Notes under the pieces: generated by a model
What the model was told of the DNA's origin: nothing
Databases searched by the model: none
The model's input: only the letters and a program-made list of their open reading frames with translations
DNA from: Girardia tigrina
Lineage: Eukaryota
DNA length: 55,990 nt
Assembly (NCBI GenBank): GCA_001938485.1
Contig: MQRK01242253.1
Span: 69,028-125,017, forward strand
Reading direction: 5' to 3'
Part shown: piece after piece, positions 21,926 through 55,694 of the stretch
Numbering within the stretch: the first letter of the stretch is position 1
How the letters are laid out: each line of letters opens with the position of its first letter
Made by a program: the position numbers and the translations under genes

Positions 21926-24557
21926 TGGTCAAAAAGAAAACGAAAAAGTTCCTCGACAAACAATTTTTTATTAAAAAAATTTTTACCTAAAAATTGTTTG
22001 AATAATTGTTAATTGTGTTATTAATAAATTTTTGGTGTTAATGAATTATAATATTGATCAAGAACCCAACATGGCGACCATCGCCAGCAGCTCAGAACAA
22101 CTAATTTCGAGACTTATACCAGACAAATTTAGGCGACAAGATAATGTGGAAACATTCATTTCGGCTTGCGCAAGATACTTCAAAGTGGCCAAAGTATCGG
22201 AAAGTATGCAAGAGATTTTGGTAATTGGTTTATTGTCACACGAACTCGTACCGATATACGAAAGTGTGGGTCCCGAAGTATAGGGATATGAAGCCCGTCT
22301 ACGACAAGCTTTTCAGACGAAAAGCACTTTAATGGATGATTTGATAGAGGCGGTAAACTTCGAGAGATCTGGAGAATCAGTGGAGGAATTCTTCGTTAAA
22401 GCAAAAAAGTTGGCAGCAAAATTGATGAAGCATGAGTGGAAAGAGACGGAGGTAGAGAAATGCCTTCTGATTCACGCGTCAAAAGATAGTGACGTGAAGA
22501 AAGAAACCAGATTTAGAGAAGTGAAAGAATTAGCGGAGGTGAAGAACGTCATTAGGAAAGTAGACGAAGTTCGGAGAATGGAAAAGCCGGTGCACGCAAT
22601 ACGACCAACATATAGAGATGTGGTCAAAACAGGCACGACGACGGAAATGGCAACAAGAAACATGATGAGGAAAGGAGATACTTTCGCAAGACAATCTTCT
22701 ATGCAGAACAATATCACATTTTGGAACTGTAAGGCATTAGGACATAAAAGCTTTGAATGTAAACGTCATAGGAAGATCACATGTCATGCATGTGGAGAAG
22801 AAGGTCATGTGCGATGAGAATGCAAAAAGGTAAGATGTGGAAGATGTAACAATCCAGGACATAGAGCTGAGGAATGTTACACGAATCTGAATAAATGATA
22901 TCAAGGAAGAACGGATTATCAAAGGAGAACCCAAAGAGATAGCTGATTATTCTCAGATTCATAAACGAAAAACCCAGGAAATCGGAACTCAGAAAACTAC
23001 AGAAGAGGATTTGAAAGAGGAAGACAGATCGTGATGATGGAGAAGGAAGAATACCGAGAAGAGCGAGAACATATAGAAAAAACACTAATCGTGCCAAGAC
23101 GACGAGGAACTGATCTTGGCATTGGAGTAAGTTTTCTTAAAGACAGACCAGATCATATAAATTATATATATAGTAGTAATAATTTTAATAATATAAATAA
23201 AATAAATAATAAATAACATAAAATATGAAATTAATGAAAATCAGTCAGAATTCATGAGTGAGCCGAACTTCTATCAGGAACCAGAAACAAGTCACAAAGT
23301 TGCGAAATTCATAAAAAAAGACACGTATGATGAAAGGGAATTGTTGATAATAACGAATTATTAAAATGTACCAATTGTATACAACAGATTAGAGGGTCGA
23401 CCAAGTATCAGAGTCATGATTGAGGACACAGAAATTGAATGTCTATTAGATACTGGTGCAGCCTTAAACGTAATGACAGAAGAAATACTTAAGAAATTGA
23501 AGAACACATGAATGGAACAAACAAATCAGAAATTGACAGCAGCAAATGGATTAAAAATGGATGTTAGAGGAGAAATAGAAACACTGATAAAAATTGGGAA
23601 GAAATCAGAGAAAATAAGATTTATAATAGTAAAGAATTTAAGACCGGACATGATTGGGGGCATGCCATTAATGAAGGAATTAGGAATAGAGCCACAATGG
23701 AAAGAAAATAAGCAACAGAATAAGAGTAACATTAACATATGCGAAATCGAGGCCAAGTTTGCGAAAGGAATCACATTCGAAGACGAGGAAAAGAAGCATT
23801 GAAAATGATTGATACGAGAAATGACAAAGCACTAGAAGAGATAATCCACCAATATCAAGGCATATTCATGGTAAAAGACTGGGATATCGGCTGTAAAAAC
23901 TTGATACGACACAGAATAGAAACAACAGGGGGACCTATAAACATAAAACCAAGAAGACAGCCGATACATTTAGAGGATAAACTTGAGGAAGCAATCAAAA
24001 ATCTAGAGGAAAATGGAATAATAAAGCCATGTAATTCACAATGAAACACACCAATAGTATGCGTTTGGAAAAAAGACAAGGACGAAATCAGACTATGTCT
24101 AGATTTCAGACGGTTAAACCTAATTACAAAGAGACAGGCCAAATATAGCGGAAATGATGGATAGGCTACATGAAACCAAATATTTCAGCACAATAGACTT
24201 AGGAAACGCGTACTACCAGGTAGAATTGGACAAGGAATCACAGCAAAAAAACGGCGTTTTCCACTAAATCAGGACAATTCTGTTTTAAACGGATGCCTTT
24301 CGGGATAGCAGCAGCCCCAGGAACATTTCAGGAACTAATGAAAAAAGTATTAAAACCGATAAAGAAGGGACCATCAGTTTATCTGGACGACATATTAATA
24401 GCAACAAGCACATAAGAAGAACATTATAACGTAAGAAAAGAAGTATTTTGAAGAATAAAGGAGACAGGATTAAAAATCAAACCATCGAAATGTAAAATAT
24501 TACGACAAGAAATAAAATTTTTAGGACACGTTATAAATGATAAAGGGATACAGACAA
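21926..24557 (+). mobile_element. 3'-truncated degenerate Ty3/gypsy retrotransposon (gag with three zinc knuckles, protease, RT)
   Basis: Knuckles WNCKALGHKSFEC, CHACGEEGHVR*EC, CGRCNNPGHRAEEC. Protease LLDTGA. RT motifs RLCLDFRRLN, RMPFG, YLDDILI, KFLGH. Ends before RNase H, with many stops and frameshifts. Confidence 0.92.
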
Positions 24558-30978: not shown

Positions 30979-31676
30979 CAGTGGTGTCCAACCTTTGTGT
31001 ACGTAACATCGACTTTTTTCTTAAAAATGTGTCGCGATCGACTTGTTGTCATAGTTGTAGTTTAAGGGGAGATTGGGAAGTTAGAAATACATACTATGTT
31101 TTTACATTATGTTATAATACAAGATATACTACTACAAAAATTCCGTGTTTCCACACTTTGAAGATAAATTTCAAATAAATATGAGTAATTAACAATATTT
31201 GATTATTCAAATTAGCTACAAAAAAATTAATTTTTTTCGATTTTTAGACCATTGAAATGGAGTGTCAAGTCGACAAAAATGAGCATTTCCGACACCATTT
31301 ATTGTTTGTGTATAATCGAGGCACCAAAGCCGCAGACGCTGCCCGAGAGCTTTGTACTGTATACGGAGAAGGTGCTATAGCTGATAGAACCGCTCGTGAT
31401 TGGTTCGCAAAATTTAAAATTGGCAATTTTGACCTCAAGGATGCACCTCATTCAGGACGACCAAAAAAATTCGATGAAGAACGTTTGAACCAACTTTTGC
31501 AAAGCAAACTAAAAAACGGAGAAGTATAGTGATTGCTTAATTTTTTTTAATATTTGTGTTTACAAAAAAAAATTTTTTACAAATTTTTTTTTCATTTTCA
31601 GTCTGTAGTCGAAGATCGACCCAAAGTCGTGCCGCGATCGACTCGTAGATCGCGATCGCCTGTTTGGGCAGCACTG
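30979..31676. mobile_element. hAT (Buster/Charlie-like) non-autonomous element containing a mariner fragment
   Basis: CAGTGGTGTCCAAC... at the left, ...GTTTGGGCAGCACTG at the right, with GATCGAC subterminal repeats at both ends. No exact TSD. Confidence 0.6.
31257..31529 (+). pseudogene. Mariner transposase N-terminal HTH fragment joined to a C-terminal remnant
   Basis: MECQVDKNEHFRHHLLF...AARELCTVYGEGAIADRTARDWFAKFK...SGRP, then a jump to an NGE-like C-terminus. No mariner TIRs seen. Confidence 0.85.
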
Positions 31677-31899: not shown

Positions 31900-33140
31900 G
31901 ATTCCTGCATCACAAATGGATGTGGGAAATATTATCCCTAAGCTAGTGCCCATCTGTCACTAGGACTTGATGTGCACGAATGATAAGACGAAATGGAAAT
32001 TTATCTGAAAACGCTTCATTACATCGGTTTCATAAGCATAAAAATATTCTTTAGAATTTTATACTCATCCCATACTTTATGATTTATCTTCAAGTGTTTC
32101 AAGATTGGATCAGTAGACAGTAAATCAAGTCCGATGGTCAAGGAATACTCTATTGTTTTTCCAAGATCATTGAATAAGAAGTGTTAGTCTGAACAAATCC
32201 ACAATACGGGATCTCTTCCTTTACCAAATTGAACGGCATAAATCTAAGCGCGACTCGCCGATATCGGGCACTCAAACACAAAACTCCTAGGTCCCTCTTA
32301 CGAGTTAAAGTATATTCCGTATATAAATTTCAACATGATTCTGTAGTGACTAATGAGGATGCACTTTCTATGCAGCTAAATCCAAGTTGATATTAAGATC
32401 TTTATAGACAAAATAAACAATAAAAATAATCTTTAATTTTTATTTAATAATTTAATAACATAGATGTGTTTCTTTGAACAAAAAACTTCAAAACGTGATC
32501 TTTTCCTTTACCAAATTCATTGGTATTTTAAAATCTAAACGCGACTCGCCAATATCTGGCACCCCCAACACAAAACTCCAAAGTCTTTCTAGCAATTTAA
32601 AGTGGATTCCGCGAGGAAATTCCGACATGATTCTGTAGTGATTAATGAGGTGCGGTTTCGATGCAGCTAAATCCGAGTTGATACTGTCTGACTTCTTTAT
32701 GTAGCCAATGTTTTTGGTGAATGTTTTTGTCGTAAACATCGGACATCTCGAAATCTAAATTGCATTTGCAAGAGCGTCCCAGCTCGCATTTACGCATTAT
32801 GCAGAGCGAGCAATCGAGAACGCTGTGGAACGAATGTTATACTGCCCCCCATATATTATGTAATTTGTATCGATTATATGAATTCGATTAAAAGTACAAG
32901 AATTTCTGCACTCAGATGCTGCTGCTGCTAAATTTACCATATGCGACTTTATTTTCATCAAGAAGATACTGTACGTTCATATAATTTATTTTTTAATGTG
33001 CCATGTGGCGCGTGATGAGATGCGCTTGGAACTTCTATACTGACTCTACACAATCAGGTGCCACTGCTTAAATTGTCTGAATGACAGTGTGATCATTTAC
33101 AGATATTTCATGCAGTAATCTCTTTGTCGCATTTCTAATC
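31900..33140 (-). pseudogene. Degenerate telomerase reverse transcriptase (TERT)-like fragment (IFD to C-terminal extension) with internal duplication
   Basis: Ordered motifs by hand translation: AEILVLLIEFI..TNYIIYGGQY/VPQRSRL (IFD end and motif B'), VLGVPDIG (D), IPYCG (E), TIEYSLTI, PILKHLKIN..KILKNIF..KRF (CTE). Many stops and frameshifts, catalytic DD not intact. Confidence 0.6.
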
Positions 33141-33360
33141 GCGACCGGGCGTAGCTAAACTGTTGCGCGGGTCTCCGCTCTCACACCGCATGGAACCCAC
33201 ACCCAAATCGCCCTCGGCGCGTAACCGCATCAATCGATATTTGAAAGAAACACAAACAAAAACGCAAAACAAGAACGAAACTCCAATTTACAAACATATT
33301 TATATATGCATTAACATCGAATTAAATATATTCAAACTCGAGTGCCGTCCGAGCGACCGA

Positions 33361-34239
33361 CTAGATCTTGTTGAAGGCGGCGATGTCGACCGACTGCACG
33401 AGCTCCTCGAACTCGGTGATCCTCTCCTCGAGGAAGTCCGTGCCGACCTTGTCGTCCTCGACCACGCACGAGATCTGCAGCTTCTTGATGCCGTAGCCGA
33501 CCGGCACGAGCTTGCTCGAGCCCCACAGCAGCCCGTCGGCCGCGACCGAGCGCACGCACCGCTCCATCTCCTTCATGTCCGTCTCGTCGTCCCACGGCTT
33601 CACGTCGAGGATGATGTTGGACTTGGCCACCAGCACCGGCTTGTGGGCCTTCTTCTCGTTGTAGGCGCGCACGCGCTCCTCCTTCAGCCGCTCGTTCTCC
33701 TCGTCGTCTTCGTCCGACCCGAATAGGTCGATATCGTCCTCGTTGCTATTGGCTACCACAGCCGCTTCCTTCTTATCGGTATTCGTCGTCGGTGTCGCTT
33801 CCATCTTCAAAACCGTCTCGATTTTATCCAATCGACAATTGATCTTCTTAATCGCTAAGGAAAAGAAATTATTTTTATCGATTTATTTTATTTAGATTTA
33901 CTCTCCAAAATTTCCTTGTGATTTCGCTGCATTTCTTCGAATATCGAGCAATCGATCGATGAAACCTGATAGAAAATGATCGAAAATCAATACGGATTAG
34001 ATATCGGAAAATCATCAAACCGATGGGACCGTTGTGAGAAGAGTCGATTTGATTTGATCACGTGCTCTTTCGATTTCTTCGATGATTCGTGTTTTTCCCG
34101 CGCATTTTTCTGTGTTTTTGGAGACTGGAGATTCGTTTACTATCACCGTGTGTTGTTCGGTTGGTTTGTATAACGATTTCACGTAGTCTTGTTCGGCGGA
34201 ATGGAATCCGGGAAATTGTACAACGTTGTCAAGATTCAT
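33361..34239 (-). CDS. EEF1D: Translation elongation factor 1-delta (eEF1B family), 3 exons: 34239-34021, 33965-33902, 33854-33361; 258 aa
   Basis: DIDLFGSD acidic region and GEF domain ([16 protein letters not shown]...[15 protein letters not shown]...VDIAAFNKI). Delta-type [12 protein letters not shown] plus leucine-zipper-like segment. GT-AG introns of 55 and 47 nt keep the frame (777 nt total). Confidence 0.93.
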
Positions 34240-34868
34240 AATTTTGAAATTCGATCGAATTGGTTCGATTAAAACAAGTGATTTTTTTTAACAATTATAA
34301 AAATTAGAGAAAAACCAACAAAATTTATTCGTTTTAAATTGTATTTTGAAATTTTTCAAAATTAAGTTTTTTTTAAAAAATAAAATTGGTATTCGATTTT
34401 CACTAATTTTTTTTATAATAAAACAATGTATTTCAATTTTTCGTAAATTGTATTTCAAAAAATAAAAATTGCATATTTTTCGATATCAAAAATTATATTT
34501 CAAAATAATAAAAGTTATATTTCATTTCCATTAAATATTTTCGAAAGATAATAAATATATTTTTGATACCGTGATCGTATTTGATCTTCTTTATTTAAGA
34601 AGAAAAATGTTAATCAAGGTAACAATTGAAAGATAAATTTAAAAAACATGTTAAAATTATAAATTACAAGAAAATCAAAATTATAATTTTCTTCCTATAA
34701 TTTTGTATTTTTAATAACTTCTTTTCATCAATTTTATTAAATAAATATAAGGGCTCTTTTTTAAATTGATGGTTATTCAAAAGAAGATATAAGATGGTTA
34801 ACCAAAGCTGAGAAAATGGACCACAAGTATGAAACGAGTTAAGAGTGTGACGTTGTAAGTCTCATAAT

Positions 34869-37280: not shown

Positions 37281-40010
37281 TTATAAATTATTTTTGTTAA
37301 CATTTTGTTTCAAAAAGAAATATTTAAGGAAAACGATAATGTGCAAATTTTCATCCGATAACCTAGTTCTTATTTTAGTGCAAACTCGGCTCGCTATGGA
37401 GAATGTTCTTTCATTGCCTGTAGATGTTGGTTTTGCGGTTTGCAGAGCTTCGAACAACAGTGTGAGATTATGACTTTTTTCCCCGGATACTTCAAAAAAT
37501 AAAAACTCTTTCTGGACTGATGATGATAATCCTACTGGTTTACTGGAAATGGAAACCATAGCTGTAGAAATAGCTTTTTGAAATTGAGATTTCAAGTCAG
37601 TATTTAAATGTTCGGGCTCGTCATTATCTTCTGAATCTGATTCTGCTGACTCATCTGATTTGAATAATCTTTCAATTATTTTTTTCCCAAATGCCACTGT
37701 CGATAACTTTGAACAGTAACCAAAGTGAACATTTCGTTTCATTAAATTTTTTGGATGAAGCATGTACTGTACAAGAGACAATAATTCAATATTACGTCTT
37801 TTATCAATTTCTCTTTTCAAAAAAACTAAGAAGTTAGAATTTATTGGTGAATCGGTATTTTTTTCCAATGTTGAACATAACAATTCAATTACACTTTCCG
37901 CGGTAAATAGTGTAGCATCATTTCTTGCTAAGGCTTCTGCGGCAATCCAAACTAGCTCTAAAATTTTTTGAATGTTTATCAAATATTTTTCGTCTATTGG
38001 GGCTAACAAATGAAGAGAATTAAAATATTCTAAGGCTTCTTTTACTTCTTTTACTTGTAAATATCTTTCTATCATGGGATCGATGGAATTCCAACGTGTC
38101 TTTATATCTATTTTTAATTCCAGTTCTTTGCCAAGTCGGGTTTTTATCTTCTCTTGCAAAAAATCATTTTTCAATGACGATAATAGAAAATATTTANNNN
38201 NNNNNNNNNNNNNNNNNNNNNNNNNNNNNNNNNNNNNNNNNNNNNNNNNNNNNNNNNNNNNNNNNNNNNNNNNNNNNNNNNNNNNNNNNNNNNNNNNNNG
38301 TTCAACCGAGTCACCATCATCAATGTCAGCGTCACTGTCATATTCGTCTTCCAAAATAATGTCTTTCTCATTTGCAATTGAACTCTGGTCAGTTTCATCA
38401 ACAGCAACATATTTTTGGTAAAAAAACTTTGTAACTGATAAATGTAGTGCATGGTTTAAGCACAATACCGGTTCAATTGGACTTTCTCTATTATATTTTT
38501 GCATTACTGCTGCACCATCGTTGATTGAACATAAAATATGATGATCAAAATCTACGTTGAACTCATTTAATCGGTTTCTTATTATTGCCTGAATATTTTT
38601 TGCATCACATTTTCNAGTTATTCTTGCTAAACCAAGATTGTAATTTTCTTTGTCATCATACAAAATAATATTGCAATATCTTCTATTTTTGATGCTTGTC
38701 CATTCGTCTACAGACAGCGAAAATCGTTTTCCAATAGAAATTTTGGACTGTAATTGTTCTACAAGTTGTATTTTTATTTTTTCGTAATAAACTTTTACCA
38801 ATTCCATCGTCTCCGTTGAATTTTTTGGCAGCTTGTATCCTAGTTTATTTGTTAGGGTTCTGAAAAAATACATGTGAACACTTTTGATAAAATTTTATAT
38901 AGGAAATTTTTTAATAATTCTTTTAGTAAAATTAGTAACTTCAAATAAAATAATATTTAGTCTAACAAAACTTGGAATTAAAATTATAAATATTTGTTTT
39001 ACTTNNTCAAAAATTATAAATATTTTACTCTTTGTTTTATCTCATCAATTTTCAAGGCTGAGGAAAATTACTATATAAACAACATCAAATTCAGTTTTAG
39101 TTTGCCCAAAAATATTTGCAAGAAATTTGAACTGAAGAGAATTGTTCGTAAGTAAAGTTATTATTAATATTTACTTTATATTTTTCAAACTTGAACAAAA
39201 CCTGTAGTATCCTCTAATGGAGTACAAGGTTTACAGAAGAGTTCTAAGTTTAAATCAAAGCATCGTTCGTTTTGGGAGATTCACAGTTTTTACTGTAATC
39301 TGTTAACTCGCACGAAATATTGATTGTATTTGTATTCTGTCANNNNNNNNNNNNNNNNNNNNNNNNNNNNNNNNNNNNNNNNNNNNNNNNNNNNNNNNNN
39401 NNNNNNNNNNNNNNNNNNNNNNNNNNNNNNNCATATATTTATGTTGGAAGACCTTTCTGAATAATTGGAGTCAGATCAAAAGATAAAAGATTATTGATTA
39501 AAGATTATTGATTGAGAATTATTGATTAAAGATTATTGATTGAGAATTATCGATTAAAGATTATTGATTAAAGAAATAAGAAAAGAGATTTACGATAAAA
39601 GATAAAGATTTAAGATTTGTGTTTTAAAAAGTAATTTAAGATAATTTTTAATAATTTAAAAACCCAACATATTTATACTTTGCCGAATGAAAGACGAATT
39701 TGTCACGCCATAATAAGAGAAACCATCTAAAGCAATTAGTCTAGACACAATCTCTTCTAAAGTTTCACGTTGTAAATAACTGGATATTAATATTTTATCC
39801 TTTTTNNNNNNNNNNNNNNNNNNNNNNNNNNNNNNNNNNNNNNNNNNNNNNNNNNNNNNNNNNNNNNNNNNNNNNNNNNNNNNNNNNNNNNNNNNNNNNN
39901 NNNNNNNNNNNNNNNNNNNNNNNNNNNNNNNTTTTACATAATTTGCATATAGCTTCTTTATTACTGTCTTTTCGCTTTTCAAAATGCTCCCAAACATTTG
40001 AAGAACCCAT
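37281..40010 (-). CDS. hAT transposase (zf-BED, DDE catalytic and dimerisation domains) in two segments: 40010-39684 and 38859-37281
   Basis: MGSSNVWEHF...CKLC (BED), SVDEWTS, NDGAA, CLNHALHL, DIKTRWNS, PTSTGNERTFS. No visible stops in the sequenced parts, but N-gaps hide some residues. Confidence 0.85.
39488..39572. repeat. Short tandem repeat (AGATTATTGATTA-like, 13-14 bp units)
   Basis: About six imperfect copies visible directly. Confidence 0.8.
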
Positions 40011-40648: not shown

Positions 40649-40740
40649 GTTATGATATTAAATTTAATTTGTTTTAATAATATATATATATAGATTTATA
40701 ACTGAACGTGTTTTTAATGGATAATAAACCTATCGTAACT
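40649..40740 (+). repeat. 5' LTR body (its first base lies at 37057, before the hAT)
   Basis: Near-identical to 43973-44059 apart from TA-run length and a few substitutions. Followed by the PBS. Confidence 0.9.
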
Positions 40741-43700
40741 GGTGACCACACCGAAAATATTAACGGTATAACGCGTAGCCAGCAGCGCAATATATTGTTA
40801 GCGGCGCTTCCAAAGAAAGCTCAGGAATTGCTGAGTTTTAATGTGAGAAAGTTCGATGGAAGAGACTCACAAGAAGCTGAAAGATGGCTGAAGGATATTG
40901 AAGAATGGCTGTCCTTGAATGATTTGCCATTGGTAAATGCTTTTGATTTATTACTTTCAGAAGAAGCCGGTAAATTATGGAAAGACCACAAAACAGATGC
41001 CTTAACTCAGGACGAAGTACGAGATTGGTTCCGTGAAACATTCACGGTGAAGAAGTCCAATCTGGATAGTTTTGTGGAGCTGGTAAATGTTAAACAAGAT
41101 GAGAAAGAAAAATTCGCGACTTTTGAAATTCGAGTAGGGAAATTGCTTAACAATGTTTTTGACTCGGAGCTGAGTCGTGATGAAATATTGAACGAATTTT
41201 TAACGAAACGGGTAAGAAGTACGGACTGAGGGACTCGTTGGCTTTAAAGCCAACATCAAAAGGGAAGACATGAGAATGCTTACAAAGGTTTATGAAAATC
41301 GGGAAACGTCCGTTGACAAGGCGAAAATCGAAGTCAATGGAATTGAAAATAGAAGATACATCAATCAGAACAAAAAACCACAAAATTATACACAAGCTGT
41401 GAAATCTTTTCCGAAGATACAACCCCAACACAACCATTGGAGTCCTCCAAGATGATGTGATGAAAGAAATGGATTTGAAAATGCCGATTATTTCAAAAAG
41501 TCTAATCAAACCAAACCAATTGATTCGGAATATCGTCAGACATCTCTGAAACAACAACCTTCGGTATCGCTGCTGCAAGTCGCTCGAAGGCTTTATAATA
41601 AATGCCGTAGCATGCGCCCGCCGCACGATGAACGGTTGCAACCGGGCAGTGTTTTTATTGTGGTGAAAACGATCACAGAAGATTTCAATGTCCCTTAAGG
41701 ACAAATGTTTAATATGTGGAAAACCGGGTCACTGTTTCAAGGCATGTAATCTGTTACGAAACGCGAATTTTGAGAAACCCAAATCGATATTGTGCGTTTA
41801 CGACGAACAGAACGAAGCCAACCAGTCCGATGATGAAATAATTTCACACGAAGTTGGGATGGGAAAAAACCTGAACAATCCCATTGCTTACATTTCGTCA
41901 ATGGGATTGGAATAGAAACCGGGAATGGGAATCGAAATGTGAAAGAACTTGAAATGATGCGAAGGACAAATGATGGTAGACTGTGGAGTATGATGGAGAT
42001 ATGTGAAATTCAACTGGAGATGTTATGGGATTCTGGAGCTTCGGTTACCGTTATGAGCGAAGATTATTGGCGGAAGATTGAAGAACCAATTTTGTCAGAT
42101 TCTGAAGTTAGATTAAGTGGGGTATTCTCTACGGGATGTGACAAACAACTACAATGGAGAAAAGTATGCCGATAAAGTTTCAGGAAATTAAAACTGGCTC
42201 TTTGCAATGCTCTGGTTCTGGGCTATCGTAGATTAGATCGTGTTTTCATTTTGGACACCGACGCTAGTTTTAGTGCAATTGGTGCAGTGTTGAGCCAATT
42301 GATGGAGAACGGAGAAGAGACAGTTATAGCTTATGGCTCCAGACATCTAACCGCACACGAGAAAGGCTACTGTGTAACGAGAAAGGAACTCTTGGCACTG
42401 CATGAATATGTCCTGCATTTTAAACAATACTTGTACGGGAAAAGATTTTTGGCTCGCACGGACCATAAGGCCTTAATTTTTATGAACACTACGAAAAAAC
42501 CAATAAGCCCACAATTCCAAGCCTAGCTGGCAAACTTATCAGAATACTATTTCAAAGTGCAATACAGGAAAGGTGAAAATCACAACAATGCTGATGGACT
42601 ATCCAGTATAAAACAAGCTCTTTACTCGCAATGTGAAACTACACATAGTGAGGCTAAAGAGAAAAAGTCTAGAGTGAGATATTTGAATTCCTTACAAGAA
42701 GACGGTGATTAAATCAAGACGATCGAAGATAGGCTGCGTTCTGATTTAGTTTTAAAGAAGCGATTGATGCCTTTTTCAAGCGTTTTTAAGGGAAGCTATC
42801 TGTAGAAATTGAGAAAAGAGCTGGTAATATCAAATTGACTGTTGATGGTCGAGATAAACAACAACCTGTTGACGATCGTACCTGAAGGATGCCTATGTGA
42901 ATTTATTAAAAATATACATTTCGATCTATGTCATCTTGGAATTAAAAAGATATTTAAATACATGCAGGATAATTTCTAGTGGCACTCTGTGTACGAAACT
43001 TTACAGAAATGTATTAACGAATGTGTCGTATGTACAAAGAGGAAAATTGATCAAACAAGAACGAAAGAAACTCTATTGCCCCAAATCAGTAACAATTTCC
43101 TAGATCCAATTATAGTAGATCGCAATTCCACTCCATGCGGCAATTTCGGGATGTGACAAACAACTACAATGGAGAAAAGTATGCTGATAAAGTTTTTTTT
43201 ATCGCACACAGGGATAAAGTTGCGTCCAACAAAAGATATCTGGTGGTCATTATATATAGATTCAGTAAATTGGTGAGTTTACATGCCGTTTCCAAACAGG
43301 ATGAGCATACCGTATTTAAATGCATTCTGCACAATTGGATTTACAGATTTGAGAAGCCGTCAAGTAACCTGACGGACAGGGGAAGACAATTTCAGAACGC
43401 ATTTATGAGTAGCAGTTTGGATCAGTTACAAATCAAACAAGAATTCAGCTCGCCCTACCAACACCAATCAAACGGTTTGGTAGAACGGGTGATTCGAACA
43501 GTGAGAGACATGATTGCCGCTTCATTAAAAGGGAAGAGTATAGAAAAAAATTGGTATGAATTATTACCATGAATCGAGTTTAGCTTAAATACCACCACAC
43601 AAGATTCAACAAAGTTCTCGCCTTTTGAAATTGTTTTCGAACGGAAAGTGAACATCCATTCCGCAGTTGGTTGTCATACTAAAACAAGAGATGAGATTAT

Positions 43701-43972
43701 TGCAGAAGCCCGGATCAATTCCAGAATGACAGCAGAGAAAATGAAAACATATCAAAATTCGATCCGAGGTGAAAGACATTTCAAGGAAGGGGAGATGGTA
43801 CTGGTCAGGGTAGATCCTAACAAAAGGAACAAGAATGATTTCCAATATGAAGGCCCATACAATATCATCAGGTTTATTTCGTCACATCAGGTAGAAATCC
43901 AATTTCCACATGATGTGAAAGTGAGACGCATTGAATGGTTGAAACGTTGGACGGGTTTCAAAAGACGGGGAG

Positions 43973-44059
43973 ATTTATGATATTAAATATAATTTGTTTT
44001 AATAATATATAGATTTATAACTGAACGTGTTTTTAATGGATAATAAACCTATCGTAAAT
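43973..44059 (+). repeat. 3' LTR (87 bp)
   Basis: Preceded by polypurine tract AAAAGACGGGGAG and followed by TSD ATGTA. Confidence 0.9.
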
Positions 44060-46321: not shown

Positions 46322-47942
46322 TAGGGTTGGCCGAAAGTAACGCCGGGTAATTTTTATATAGATTGTAATTGTTTTATGTCCCCTCATTACCTCTATGCTA
46401 ATTATTTTTTGTTTCCACGTGCGGTTCTTAAAACTTATAAATAAGTATTTCTAAAAACTTTCAGATTACAATTTATATAAGAATTTTATTTTTATTTAAT
46501 AAAAACTTAATTTTTTATGAACTTTAACTTTAATCAACTTATTTAGTTTAAAATTCATATTAATTCATTTCTTTTTAAATTCAATTTGTTTGAAATAGTG
46601 AAATTTTTATAATCAGTGGTAGCTAATATAGTCCAGTCAAAAATTAAAGAAATTTGGAAACTACGACAAGAATGAAACGTTACAAGATTAAACAACGTTT
46701 AGAAATATTGGAAATTCGGTATTTAAATGAAAGAAATTACGGAAAGCAGAACGAATTTATAATAAAAAACATCGATGCGAGGTTCAATAAAATGAGACTA
46801 AGGTTCATCGAATGGTAAGCAAGTTTCTTGAAACAGAATCGCTATAAGATAACAAGGATGCACAAACTGATTGATCAAGGGCACAAGATGATGAAATGGT
46901 GGAAAAAGTGCGCGAGTTTTACGAAGAGCAGCCATCAACATCGCAAGTTAAAGCCTCACTTGAACTCAGTATACCATGGGCAACACTACGGCGAGTTTTG
47001 AAGACGAAATTGCACTTTTTCCCGAACAAAATTCAAGTTGTATGGACACTGCTACCAAGGGACGGAGAAAGAAGATTTAAATTTGCAAACATGGTCTTGA
47101 ATTTGGTGGTAGAAAGTAAATTGGACCTAAATCGAATCTGGTTTCCGGACGAGGCGCAATTTTACCTTAATGGATACGTAAAAAAGCAGAATTATCGCTT
47201 TTGGGGAACCGAAAATCCACATTTAATGATTGCCAAGCCTGCATTTCCAAAACACGCGACTGTTTGGTGCGCATTGTCATCAACTGGAGACATTGGTCCA
47301 TATTTTTTTCACGGAAACAACCAAGACTGTTGTGTACAAAGAAGTTTTGGTCACCTTTTTCATCCCAATCGCTCATTGTTTGAACCAACTTGATAGATAT
47401 TGGTTCATGCAAGATGGGGCACGACCCAACAGGACAGCTGATGTATTCGATTTAATCCGCGAACACTTTGGTGGAAGATTTATCGGTCTAGATAGCGAAA
47501 GATTCACTGGAAAAAGAATGGATTGGTCACCATATTCGCCAGATTTCTTTTTGTGGGGCTATCTCAAGGATAGAATTTTCCATACTCCTCCGACTACAGT
47601 TGATGGATTAAAGGCAGCAATCCAAAAGTAAATCATGGAATGGAGCCGAAACATTGGAAAAAAGTAATTAAAGAATTTGAAAATCGCATCTCACATGTAA
47701 TCACAAACAAAGGAGGTCACTTTGAAAACTTATTTTATCAAATAATAACCATTTAAAACTTTTTTACAAAAAATTTCACTTTAACTTAAAAAACAGTCGG
47801 CCTTTTTAATAAAAATTTAAAAAGAACAAATCTAAAGAACCGCACGTGGAAACAAAAAATAATTACGATAGAGGTAATGAAGGGACATATAACAATTGCA
47901 ATTTATATAAAAATTACCCGGCGTTACTTTTGGTCAACCCTG
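46322..47942 (+). mobile_element. rosa/DD41D-related Tc1/mariner element with ~105-bp TIRs, degenerate transposase
   Basis: Long imperfect TIRs flanked by TA. IWFPDEAQFYLNGYV, WGTENPH, WFMQDGARP, WSPYSPD-FFLWGYLK, with frameshifts and stops. Confidence 0.92.
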
Positions 47943-54441: not shown

Positions 54442-55694
54442 TTAGGTTGTTCGGAAAGTTCGTAGCGTTTTGCAATAAAAATTTCAAAGATGATTTTTTT
54501 TAATTTTCACGCATAATTAAACTGGTGTACCTTTTATAAATAAATAAATATACATTAGATTTTAAAAATAAATCGTTTTTACATAGATTATAAATTTATA
54601 ATGGAAGAAAATAAACATTATTTAAGACATGTTATGCTATTTTATTTTAATAAGAAAAATGCTGCAGAAATCAGGAAGAAAATCTGTAAAGTTTATGGTG
54701 ATGATGCTATAGGAGAGAGTACAGCTCGTAAATGGTTTGCAAACTTTAAAAAAGAAGAATTCAACGTCGAGGATGAAGAAAGATCTGACCGCCCATCAAG
54801 TGACAACGATGACGAAATCAGTCAGATAAAAGCCGATAACCCAAGAATTTCAACAATAGAATTGGCTAACATGCTTGGTATATTTAATAACACCACTCAC
54901 GAACACCTTATCAATCTGGGTTTCGTTTCACGACTCGATATATGGATGCCGAAACAATTATCAGAAAAGGGCTCTCAGAGCGTGCCTTCGCATGTAATAT
55001 TTTGATAAAAAGAAACAATATTGGGTCTTCTCTTAAGCAACTGATAACAAGAGATGAACAGTGAATAATGAAAGATAACATACAGCGGAAAAGATCTCTG
55101 GGAGAGAACAACAAGAACAACATATCTTACATCAGCAAATTCAGATCTTCATCCATAAAGGTTTTCCTTGGCGTATGATGGGATTGGAAGGGAATCATTT
55201 ATTTCGAATTGATTCCTAACAAAGAAACAATTAATTCTGAAAAATATTGTCAACAATTATCGAAATTGGCTGCAGCAATAAAGCTGAAACACCAAGAATT
55301 GACCAACAGAAAATGCGTTGTCTTTCATCAAGACAAGTCAAGGCCTCACAAATTTTTGCAGACTTGAAAAAAAATATTGTAGTTTGAATGGGATATTCTA
55401 TTACATCCTCCTTATTCTCCGGATCGCGCTACTTCAGATTATCACTTTTTCAGTTTCTTTCAAATCTGGAAAGAAATTTGAAAATTCAGAAGGATGCATG
55501 AAATATCTGGATGAGTATTTTTGTGAGGACAAATCAAAGCTTTCACGAAAGAGGCATAATGAGTCTTGAACAGAGATGTAGAAAGGCAGTAGAGAGCAAC
55601 GGAGAATATTATATTGAATCAATACGTCTATGTTAGCTTTTAAAAACCTACAAACTCCCATTAAAAACGCTACGAATTTTCCGAACAACCCTAA
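54442..55694 (+). mobile_element. Full-length degenerate mariner (DD34D-type)
   Basis: TIRs TTAGGTTGTTCGGAAAGTTCGTAGCGTTTT / AAAACGCTACGAATTTTCCGAACAACCCTAA. MEENKHYLRHVMLFYF..., WMPKQL, ITRDEQ, HQD, HPPYSPD, with stops and frameshifts. Confidence 0.93.

What the first reader, a model, noticed from the sequence alone, without database searches (positions are those of the whole stretch)
33140..33720. Abrupt switch to 100% GC3 inside one exon of EF1-delta
Seen: all 115 codons from 33708 to the stop end in G or C. Exon 1 has under half G/C-ending codons and the flanking genome is strongly AT-rich. The switch is inside exon 3 at the DLFGSD motif, with no intron or frame break. GC/CpG-rich patches continue into non-coding DNA (33335-33360, 33140-33230). 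Inference: options are an intense local GC-biased gene-conversion tract, replacement of the conserved GEF domain by a homologous sequence from a GC-rich donor, or a chimeric assembly with a contaminant.
Basis: partly seen in the sequence, partly recalled or inferred. Interest (0 to 1): 0.7.

Follow-up and report, generated by a model that had tools for sequence, protein, structure and literature searches.

The report
GC-saturated gene bodies in AT-rich flatworm
This translation-factor gene is real and intact, and its long run of G/C-ending codons is neither a graft nor an assembly error but one case of a pattern shared by many housekeeping genes of this AT-rich animal, likely driven by GC-favouring gene conversion inside gene bodies.

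Summary
In detail: 115 sense codons plus TAG from 33708 all end in G/C. The rise is a ramp (42%, 57%, 65%, 100%), not a jump from under half. It is not a chimera or a transplant. Independent DNA and probable-RNA contigs cross the switch with no mismatch, an intron-less dead copy joins both halves, and both halves look like native flatworm EF1-delta. It is also not local. The EF1-beta paralog ramps the same way, and 23 of 77 sampled housekeeping gene pieces reach 90% GC3 or more, four with longer runs than this gene. Close paralogs of some of them stay at 20-35%. The likely cause is strong GC-biased gene conversion within certain gene bodies. Both C- and G-ending synonyms are used, recent changes here run A/T to G/C (6:0, three amino-acid changing), short-intron GC tracks GC3, and unique DNA past the poly(A) site is GC-rich. 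Translational selection remains a rival, since long introns stay very AT-rich. My look-ups found no earlier scan note or paper describing this in flatworms.

The parts
34021..34239 (-). EF1-delta coding exon 1 (73 codons, GC3 0.42), delta-type N-terminus
   Evidence: N-terminus matches a profile of 24 delta-type N-termini at E 5.5e-6 with Z=1, the beta paralog does not (0.05)
33966..34020 (-). intron 1, 55 bp, GT-AG, 30% GC
   Evidence: skipped in probable-RNA contigs of runs X3 and X6; absent from copy L008
33902..33965 (-). coding exon 2
33855..33901 (-). intron 2, 47 bp, GT-AG, 11% GC
   Evidence: skipped in X3 and X6; absent from L008
33709..33854 (-). 5' part of exon 3: end of the predicted coiled coil, linker and start of the acidic motif; GC3 about 0.6
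   Evidence: Pfam PF10587 begins here
33361..33708 (-). GC3-saturated tract: acidic region and GEF domain, 115 codons plus TAG, all G/C-ending
   Evidence: Pfam PF00736 E 7e-36 and PF10587 E 3e-9
33282..33360 (-). 3' UTR: first 25 nt 68% GC, then AT-rich; poly(A) tail joins at about 33282
   Evidence: T-tailed loose ends in run X3
33130..33240 (.). GC-rich (58%) non-coding patch beyond the poly(A) site, single copy in the search
   Evidence: one match in G000, itself (that search skips very common words); no Rfam match here
34240..34288 (-). probable 5' UTR, shared with copies L002, L003 and L007
   Evidence: probable-RNA cover in X3 starts near 34267

Best explanation
This is the native, spliced EF1-delta gene, and its saturated tract is one example of a genome-wide class of GC-rich gene bodies that is likely produced by strong GC-biased gene conversion (gBGC) acting inside certain genes. 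Shown: gene structure and splicing, continuity across the switch, the same profile in many other genes, flat AT-rich close paralogs, and A/T-to-G/C direction of recent changes. Inferred: background mutation pulls towards A/T, while frequent heteroduplex repair (meiotic, or in long-lived stem cells) fixes G/C alleles from a few hundred bases past the gene start. Third positions saturate because they are free to change and protected from indels. The first 100-500 bases stay lower, either because they lie outside the converted zone or because selection keeps the start region A/T-rich. Untested: that recombination or breaks are actually concentrated in these genes.
For: (1) Class: 23 of 77 gene pieces reach >=90% GC3 in a 40-codon bin, 33 are intermediate, 21 never exceed 50%; runs of 221, 176, 144 and 127 codons occur in eIF4A-III-like L132, CCT L047, proteasome L071 and L084, against 111 here. 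(2) Ramp: 11 of 12 non-low DEAD-box genes rise from the first 40 codons to codons 80-200 (p=0.0015); 8 low ones show no trend (p=0.58) (grouped after seeing the data). (3) Locus-specific, not function-specific: L132 0.85 vs L134 0.35 at 93% amino-acid identity; L084 0.95 vs L092 0.30; two EF2 copies 99.6% identical differ 14:1 in S/W synonymous sites. (4) Base-level force: in 56 saturated bins both endings are used, e.g. GCG 112/GCC 82, ACG 71/ACC 44, CCG 55/CCC 13, TCG 59/AGC 46/TCC 17. (5) Direction: of 21 sites where dead copies share a difference from the gene, 6 polarise as gene-derived W>S and 0 as S>W, three changing the amino acid; private changes in the copies run 29 S>W to 5 W>S (Fisher p=1.2e-4). 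(6) Polarised amino-acid changes: high copies 12 W>S to 4 S>W, low copies 4 to 24 (p=1.7e-4). (7) Non-coding signal: GC of 16 short introns tracks local GC3 (rho 0.54, p=0.03); the same HSP70 intron is 13%, 20% and 49% GC in low, low and saturated contexts; the patch at 33130-33240 lies past the poly(A) site. (8) No accuracy signal in CCT1: GC3 0.85 at conserved vs 0.81 at variable residues. (9) GC-biased conversion is reported in asexual Schmidtea (10.1101/2023.03.20.533553, passages).
Against: Non-coding DNA right beside some saturated exons stays at 7-14% GC (L076, L099), and one 70-bp intron next to 91% GC3 is only 24% (L118); a purely regional force should lift these more. The intron correlation rests on 16 points and leans on one. 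CCT1 L044 shows no GC-ward amino-acid excess against 119 homologs (14 up, 22 down in the 3' part) or against its closest homolog (14 vs 15). Much of the paralog contrast comes from low copies drifting to A/T; 12 of 16 in the high copies is modest alone. One of the six polarised sites (33610) relies on L008 against EF1-beta, and two of the amino-acid changes match states seen in other animals, so they are not clearly harmful. Another Schmidtea study found no GC bias in runs of homozygosity (PMC12284295, passages). Allele frequencies, expression and recombination were not measured.
Confidence: 0.55

Rival explanations
1. Selection on synonymous codons or on mRNA: highly or broadly expressed copies are selected for G/C-ending codons, with an A/T-rich start kept for translation initiation; low copies are weakly expressed and drift to A/T.
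For: The signal is far stronger in exons than in long introns or flanks. The affected genes are housekeeping genes. Highly expressed flatworm genes are reported to prefer GC-rich codons (PMC6739440, passages). In EF1-delta the step sits at the start of the conserved domain.
Against: C- and G-ending synonyms, including NCG codons, are all favoured rather than one codon per amino acid. No conserved-site excess in CCT1. Most actin copies are flat at 0.21-0.37 and the commonest EF1-alpha type is 0.36-0.49, although expression was not measured. Non-synonymous, intronic and post-poly(A) GC gains are not predicted.
Confidence: 0.25
2. A local GC-biased mutation or repair process tied to germ-line or stem-cell transcription, with no fixation bias.
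For: Locus-specific, anchored to gene starts, touches introns and amino acids.
Against: Runs of 100-220 codons with no A/T ending would need an extreme mutation bias. Every dead copy of this tract decays towards A/T (29:5).
Confidence: 0.12
3. Ectopic conversion between paralogs (EF1-beta, EF1-delta and their copies), or with reverse-transcribed mRNA, confined to the shared or 3' part.
For: The step coincides with the start of beta/delta homology (81% DNA identity from 33743). Processed and deleted copies are plentiful. The HSP70 L041 step is sharp.
Against: Genes with uniform conservation and no close GC-rich partner found (CCT1, BiP-like L031, eIF4A-III-like L132, whose close paralogs are AT-rich) ramp too. 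Several long genes fall again at the 3' end (L127, L138, L104). Intron and post-poly(A) gains are not explained by cDNA.
Confidence: 0.06
4. Domain replacement from a GC-rich foreign donor, or a chimeric assembly with a contaminant.
For: Only the abrupt composition change itself.
Against: A DNA contig spans 33690-34249 and a probable-RNA contig spans 33448-33854 plus both upstream exons, each with 0 differences (X1 may be related to the source, but X6 is another study). L008 lacks both introns and holds both halves. No protein hit among the best 120 exceeds 81%. The GEF tree is unresolved but nearest by path to Macrostomum.
Confidence: 0.02

Closest known systems
eEF1B-delta / eEF1B-beta family (Pfam PF00736 EF1_GNE, PF10587)
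   Same: Acidic motif plus GEF domain; delta-type N-terminus.
   Different: Nothing unusual at the protein level beyond divergence (81% at best).
Runaway GC evolution in gerbils (PMC7403616, abstract seen)
   Same: Extreme GC3 with AT-to-GC excess at synonymous and non-synonymous sites, attributed to gBGC.
   Different: In gerbils the affected genes cluster in megabase regions. Here the effect is confined to 0.3-2 kb of gene body within about 30% GC surroundings, and starts only past the gene's 5' end. Clustering of affected genes could not be judged in this fragmented assembly.
Bimodal GC3 and 5'-3' gradients of grasses (PMC4684703, abstract seen)
   Same: High and low GC3 gene classes with within-gene gradients; gBGC invoked.
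   Different: Grass gradients fall from 5' to 3' and step at introns. Here GC3 rises from the 5' end and steps inside exons. A search listing (PMC3762193, start of abstract only) mentions 5'-to-3' increases in high-GC3 genes, so a rising gradient is not unprecedented.
[quoted passage not shown]
   Same: A flatworm with AT-to-GC variants favoured by conversion.
   Different: That work reports a polymorphism-level bias in a species described as GC-poor in coding DNA (PMC6739440, passages). The passages seen describe no saturation and no within-gene profile.
Conversion-driven GC rise in mammalian Hsp70 and histone multigene families (recalled, not from a call)
   Same: GC rise limited to homologous coding parts.
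   Different: Here genes with no GC-rich close paralog found are affected as well.

Membership tests
eEF1B-delta | C-terminal GEF domain preceded by the acidic motif | tested here: met
   PF00736 122.6 bits, PF10587 37.6 bits, both over cut-off
eEF1B-delta | delta-type N-terminus rather than the beta-type N-domain | tested here: met
   Profile of 24 delta-type N-termini hits at E 5.5e-6 (Z=1); paralog L004 scores 0.05. The match is weak but discriminating.
eEF1B-delta | spliced, expressed, intact reading frame | tested here: met
   258 aa frame; both introns skipped in runs X3 and X6, whose RNA status is the tool's guess
GC-biased gene conversion target | excess of W>S over S>W substitutions | tested here: met
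   6:0 in the gene vs 5:29 in dead copies; small numbers
GC-biased gene conversion target | bias reaches non-synonymous sites | tested here: inconclusive
   12:4 vs 4:24 in polarised paralog pairs, but no excess in CCT1 against homologs
GC-biased gene conversion target | bias reaches neighbouring non-coding DNA | tested here: inconclusive
   Short introns correlate (rho 0.54, n=16) and the post-poly(A) patch is 58% GC, but DNA beside other saturated exons is 7-14% GC
GC-biased gene conversion target | W>S alleles at higher population frequency than S>W | not testable with these tools
   Only assembled contigs were laid; they give no allele frequencies
GC-biased gene conversion target | elevated local recombination or conversion rate | not testable with these tools
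   No map or break data
Translational selection | one preferred codon per amino acid matching abundant tRNAs | tested here: inconclusive
   Both C and G endings are used in every four-fold box; tRNA genes were not counted
Translational selection | stronger bias at conserved residues | tested here: not met
   CCT1 only: 0.85 vs 0.81 in the 3' part, 0.68 vs 0.68 in the 5' part
Horizontally acquired domain | closer match to a distant taxon than to relatives | tested here: not met
   Best hit Macrostomum 81%, fish about 80%; tree unresolved
Assembly chimera | no independent sequence crosses the junction | tested here: not met
   Contigs of X1, X2, X3 and X6 cross 33708-33760; L008 holds both halves

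The most novel reading that the evidence does not exclude
This flatworm lineage runs a gene-body-confined GC-fixing process, anchored a few hundred bases past the starts of stem-cell or germ-line active genes and possibly working by mitotic conversion in stem cells. It is strong enough to saturate third positions and push amino-acid changes in a 30% GC genome, while sister copies of the same genes drift to A/T.
Probability: 0.3. Interest if true: 0.72.

Novelty: new variant of a known kind. Interest (0 to 1): 0.42.

Why it matters
As a single-gene oddity it matters little: the gene is an ordinary EF1-delta and the tract is one of many. The genome-wide pattern is more valuable. Paralog pairs with the same job at GC3 0.3 and 0.9 are natural controls for separating gBGC from translational selection. 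If conversion is the cause, GC3 profiles would map where recombination or repair happens in a regenerating, stem-cell-rich animal, bearing on how such lineages purge or fix mutations. Practically, it warns that GC-based contamination filters, codon optimisation and phylogenies from these genes can mislead; several of the GC-richest genes contain assembly gaps.

Tried and rejected
Chimeric assembly and foreign donor: rejected. A repeat or RNA gene as the source of the 33130-33240 patch: one genomic match only, and the two Rfam matches in 32800-34700 are below threshold and lie elsewhere. Two genomes mixed in the assembly (high class vs low class): not excluded outright, but disfavoured because classes form a continuum (23/33/21), near-identical copies already differ in S/W direction, pair identities range 60-99%, and high genes have AT-rich starts, introns and flanks. 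cDNA-mediated 3'-anchored conversion: disfavoured. The GEF-domain tree was uninformative (1 of 14 inner branches well supported). A neighbour test on the rest of the contig and six other contigs gave too few host genes to judge clustering. The mean profile of 12 long non-low genes is only 0.51 rising to about 0.61, so ramp shape varies between genes. The gene's state in more distant species holding a small share of it was not examined.

Full report
Observation. The minus strand carries a three-exon gene (34239-34021, 33965-33902, 33854-33361) encoding 258 aa. From 33708 all 115 sense codons and the TAG end in G/C; 111 of these are informative. GC3 is 0.42 in exon 1, 0.57 from exon 2 to about 33745, 0.65 in codons 121-140 and then 1.00. 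The best change point is 33708. The non-coding patches are real: 68% GC just after the stop and 58% at 33130-33240, with 19% between. The window is about 30% GC.

Identity. The 3' part holds PF10587 and PF00736. The N-terminus matches a profile of 24 delta-type N-termini, and its only BLAST hit among the fetched homologs is a weak one (E 0.07) to a Macrostomum protein. Best named hits for this gene, CCT1 and PSMB3 are flatworms, so the host is likely a flatworm; the species was not established.

Not an artefact. Four runs were laid. DNA contig 33690-34249 (X1) and probable-RNA contig 33448-33854 plus both upstream exons (X6) show no differences. X2 and X3 also cross the switch with a few variants. 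X3 and X6 skip both introns, and X3 has T-tails at 33282. X1 also spans 33043-33457. The genome holds 13 matches to exon 3, of which I fetched 8. L008 lacks both introns and joins the AT-rich and GC-rich halves. L002, L003 and L007 join 34182 directly to 33743.

Not local. L004, the EF1-beta paralog, rises from 40-60% to 85-100%. I fetched 145 loci from six families (actin, HSP70, CCT, proteasome, translational GTPases, DEAD helicases), profiled 107 (38 left out as duplicates or fragments), and dropped 30 more as near-duplicates, partial or frameshifted, leaving 77. Of these 23 reach at least 90% GC3 in a 40-codon bin, 33 are intermediate and 21 stay at or below 50%. In 18 of the 23 the first bin is at least 10 points below the peak; this count is inflated because the class is defined by the peak. 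Runs of 221, 176, 144 and 127 G/C-ending codons exceed the 111 here. L132 reads 40, 60, 82, then 100 for five bins, 87, 70. HSP70 L041 steps from about 40 to about 90 inside one exon. The sample is housekeeping families and top matches only, so it does not give genome-wide frequencies.

Locus, not function. Close paralogs differ sharply: L132 0.85 vs L134 0.35 (93% amino-acid identity), L084 0.95 vs L092 0.30, L076 0.75 vs L069 0.28. Most actins are flat and low.

Mechanism, evidence for a base-level force. Saturated bins (56 bins, 2,240 codons, from 71 pieces) use both C and G endings, often NCG. At 21 sites where at least two dead copies share a difference from the gene, I read 6 as gene-derived W>S and none as S>W using EF1-beta or L008 as outgroup; the rest are S>S, copy-derived or ambiguous. 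Private changes in the copies are 29 S>W to 5 W>S. Polarised amino-acid changes in five paralog comparisons are 12:4 W>S in high copies and 4:24 in low copies. Sixteen short introns track local GC3 (rho 0.54, p=0.03). CCT1 shows no conserved-site excess.

Mechanism, evidence against. DNA beside several saturated exons is 7-14% GC. CCT1 shows no amino-acid drift to GC against homologs. Numbers are small, outgroups distant, and some low copies may be decaying. I therefore put gBGC at 0.55, selection on codons or mRNA at 0.25, local mutation bias at 0.12, paralog or cDNA conversion at 0.06 and donor or chimera at 0.02.

Literature. Seen: PMC6739440 (passages; Schmidtea is GC-poor, highly expressed flatworm genes prefer GC codons), 10.1101/2023.03.20.533553 (passages; GC-biased conversion in asexual Schmidtea), PMC12284295 (passages; no GC bias in runs of homozygosity), PMC7403616 and PMC4684703 (abstracts), 10.1101/2024.07.22.604600 (passages on intron controls), and 10.1101/050724, 10.1101/2020.07.01.183442 and 10.1101/2022.07.19.500599 (passages; nothing on this pattern). 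Searches combining planarian, flatworm or genus names with GC3, codon usage, GC content, gBGC or bimodal and one on gradients listed no paper describing saturated gene bodies in flatworms. The library lacks most subscription papers, and supplements were not read; bioRxiv supplements are closed and could hold GC3 tables. Earlier scan notes gave nothing on GC3 among the 8 of 17 shown for this genome and nothing by words or sequence.

Verdict. What remains is a lineage-wide, gene-body-confined GC saturation with a rising 5' ramp, most likely a new variant of gBGC-driven composition. Interest 0.42.

Noticed in passing
L002:300-770, L003:1460-1978, L007:1307-1560: A family of EF1-delta copies joins the first 19 codons directly to the acidic region at a 3-base microhomology, deleting 34181-33744. 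L002 keeps an open 145-codon frame but has Gly-to-Asp at an invariant site; L003 has lost the start codon. It may relate to the cargo-carrying cassettes in earlier scan notes; not tested.
   Followed up: partly
L008:1505-2061: Processed, intron-less and decayed copy of EF1-delta, truncated in the GEF domain.
   Followed up: yes
window 33528-33550 in run X2: The only X2 contig laid over this stretch carries the copy-type A/T alleles, so the gene itself may be polymorphic or reconverted there; contigs cannot settle it.
   Followed up: no
G000, CCT family search: About 35 separate contigs match only CCT profile positions 1-82 or less, suggesting a multiplied 5' gene fragment carried by a repeat.
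   Followed up: no
L132:2600-2800 and L041:3760-3918: Both genes have a partial duplicate of their 3' end just downstream, and L132 shows a GC-richer patch after its AATAAA, as EF1-delta does.
   Followed up: no
L031, L037, L041, L048: Assembly gaps (N runs) fall inside GC-saturated coding parts, so this gene class is probably under-assembled.
   Followed up: no
window 37281-38894 (-), 22284-22817, 40702-43980, 46875-47631, 54559-55005, 31248-31529: Transposon-like frames around the gene, by eye from ORF translations: a hAT-like transposase, Gypsy-like gag/pol pieces and mariner-like fragments. Labels are recalled, not tested.
   Followed up: no
window 32200-32700: A roughly 300-bp direct duplication downstream of the gene (79% identity).
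   Followed up: no
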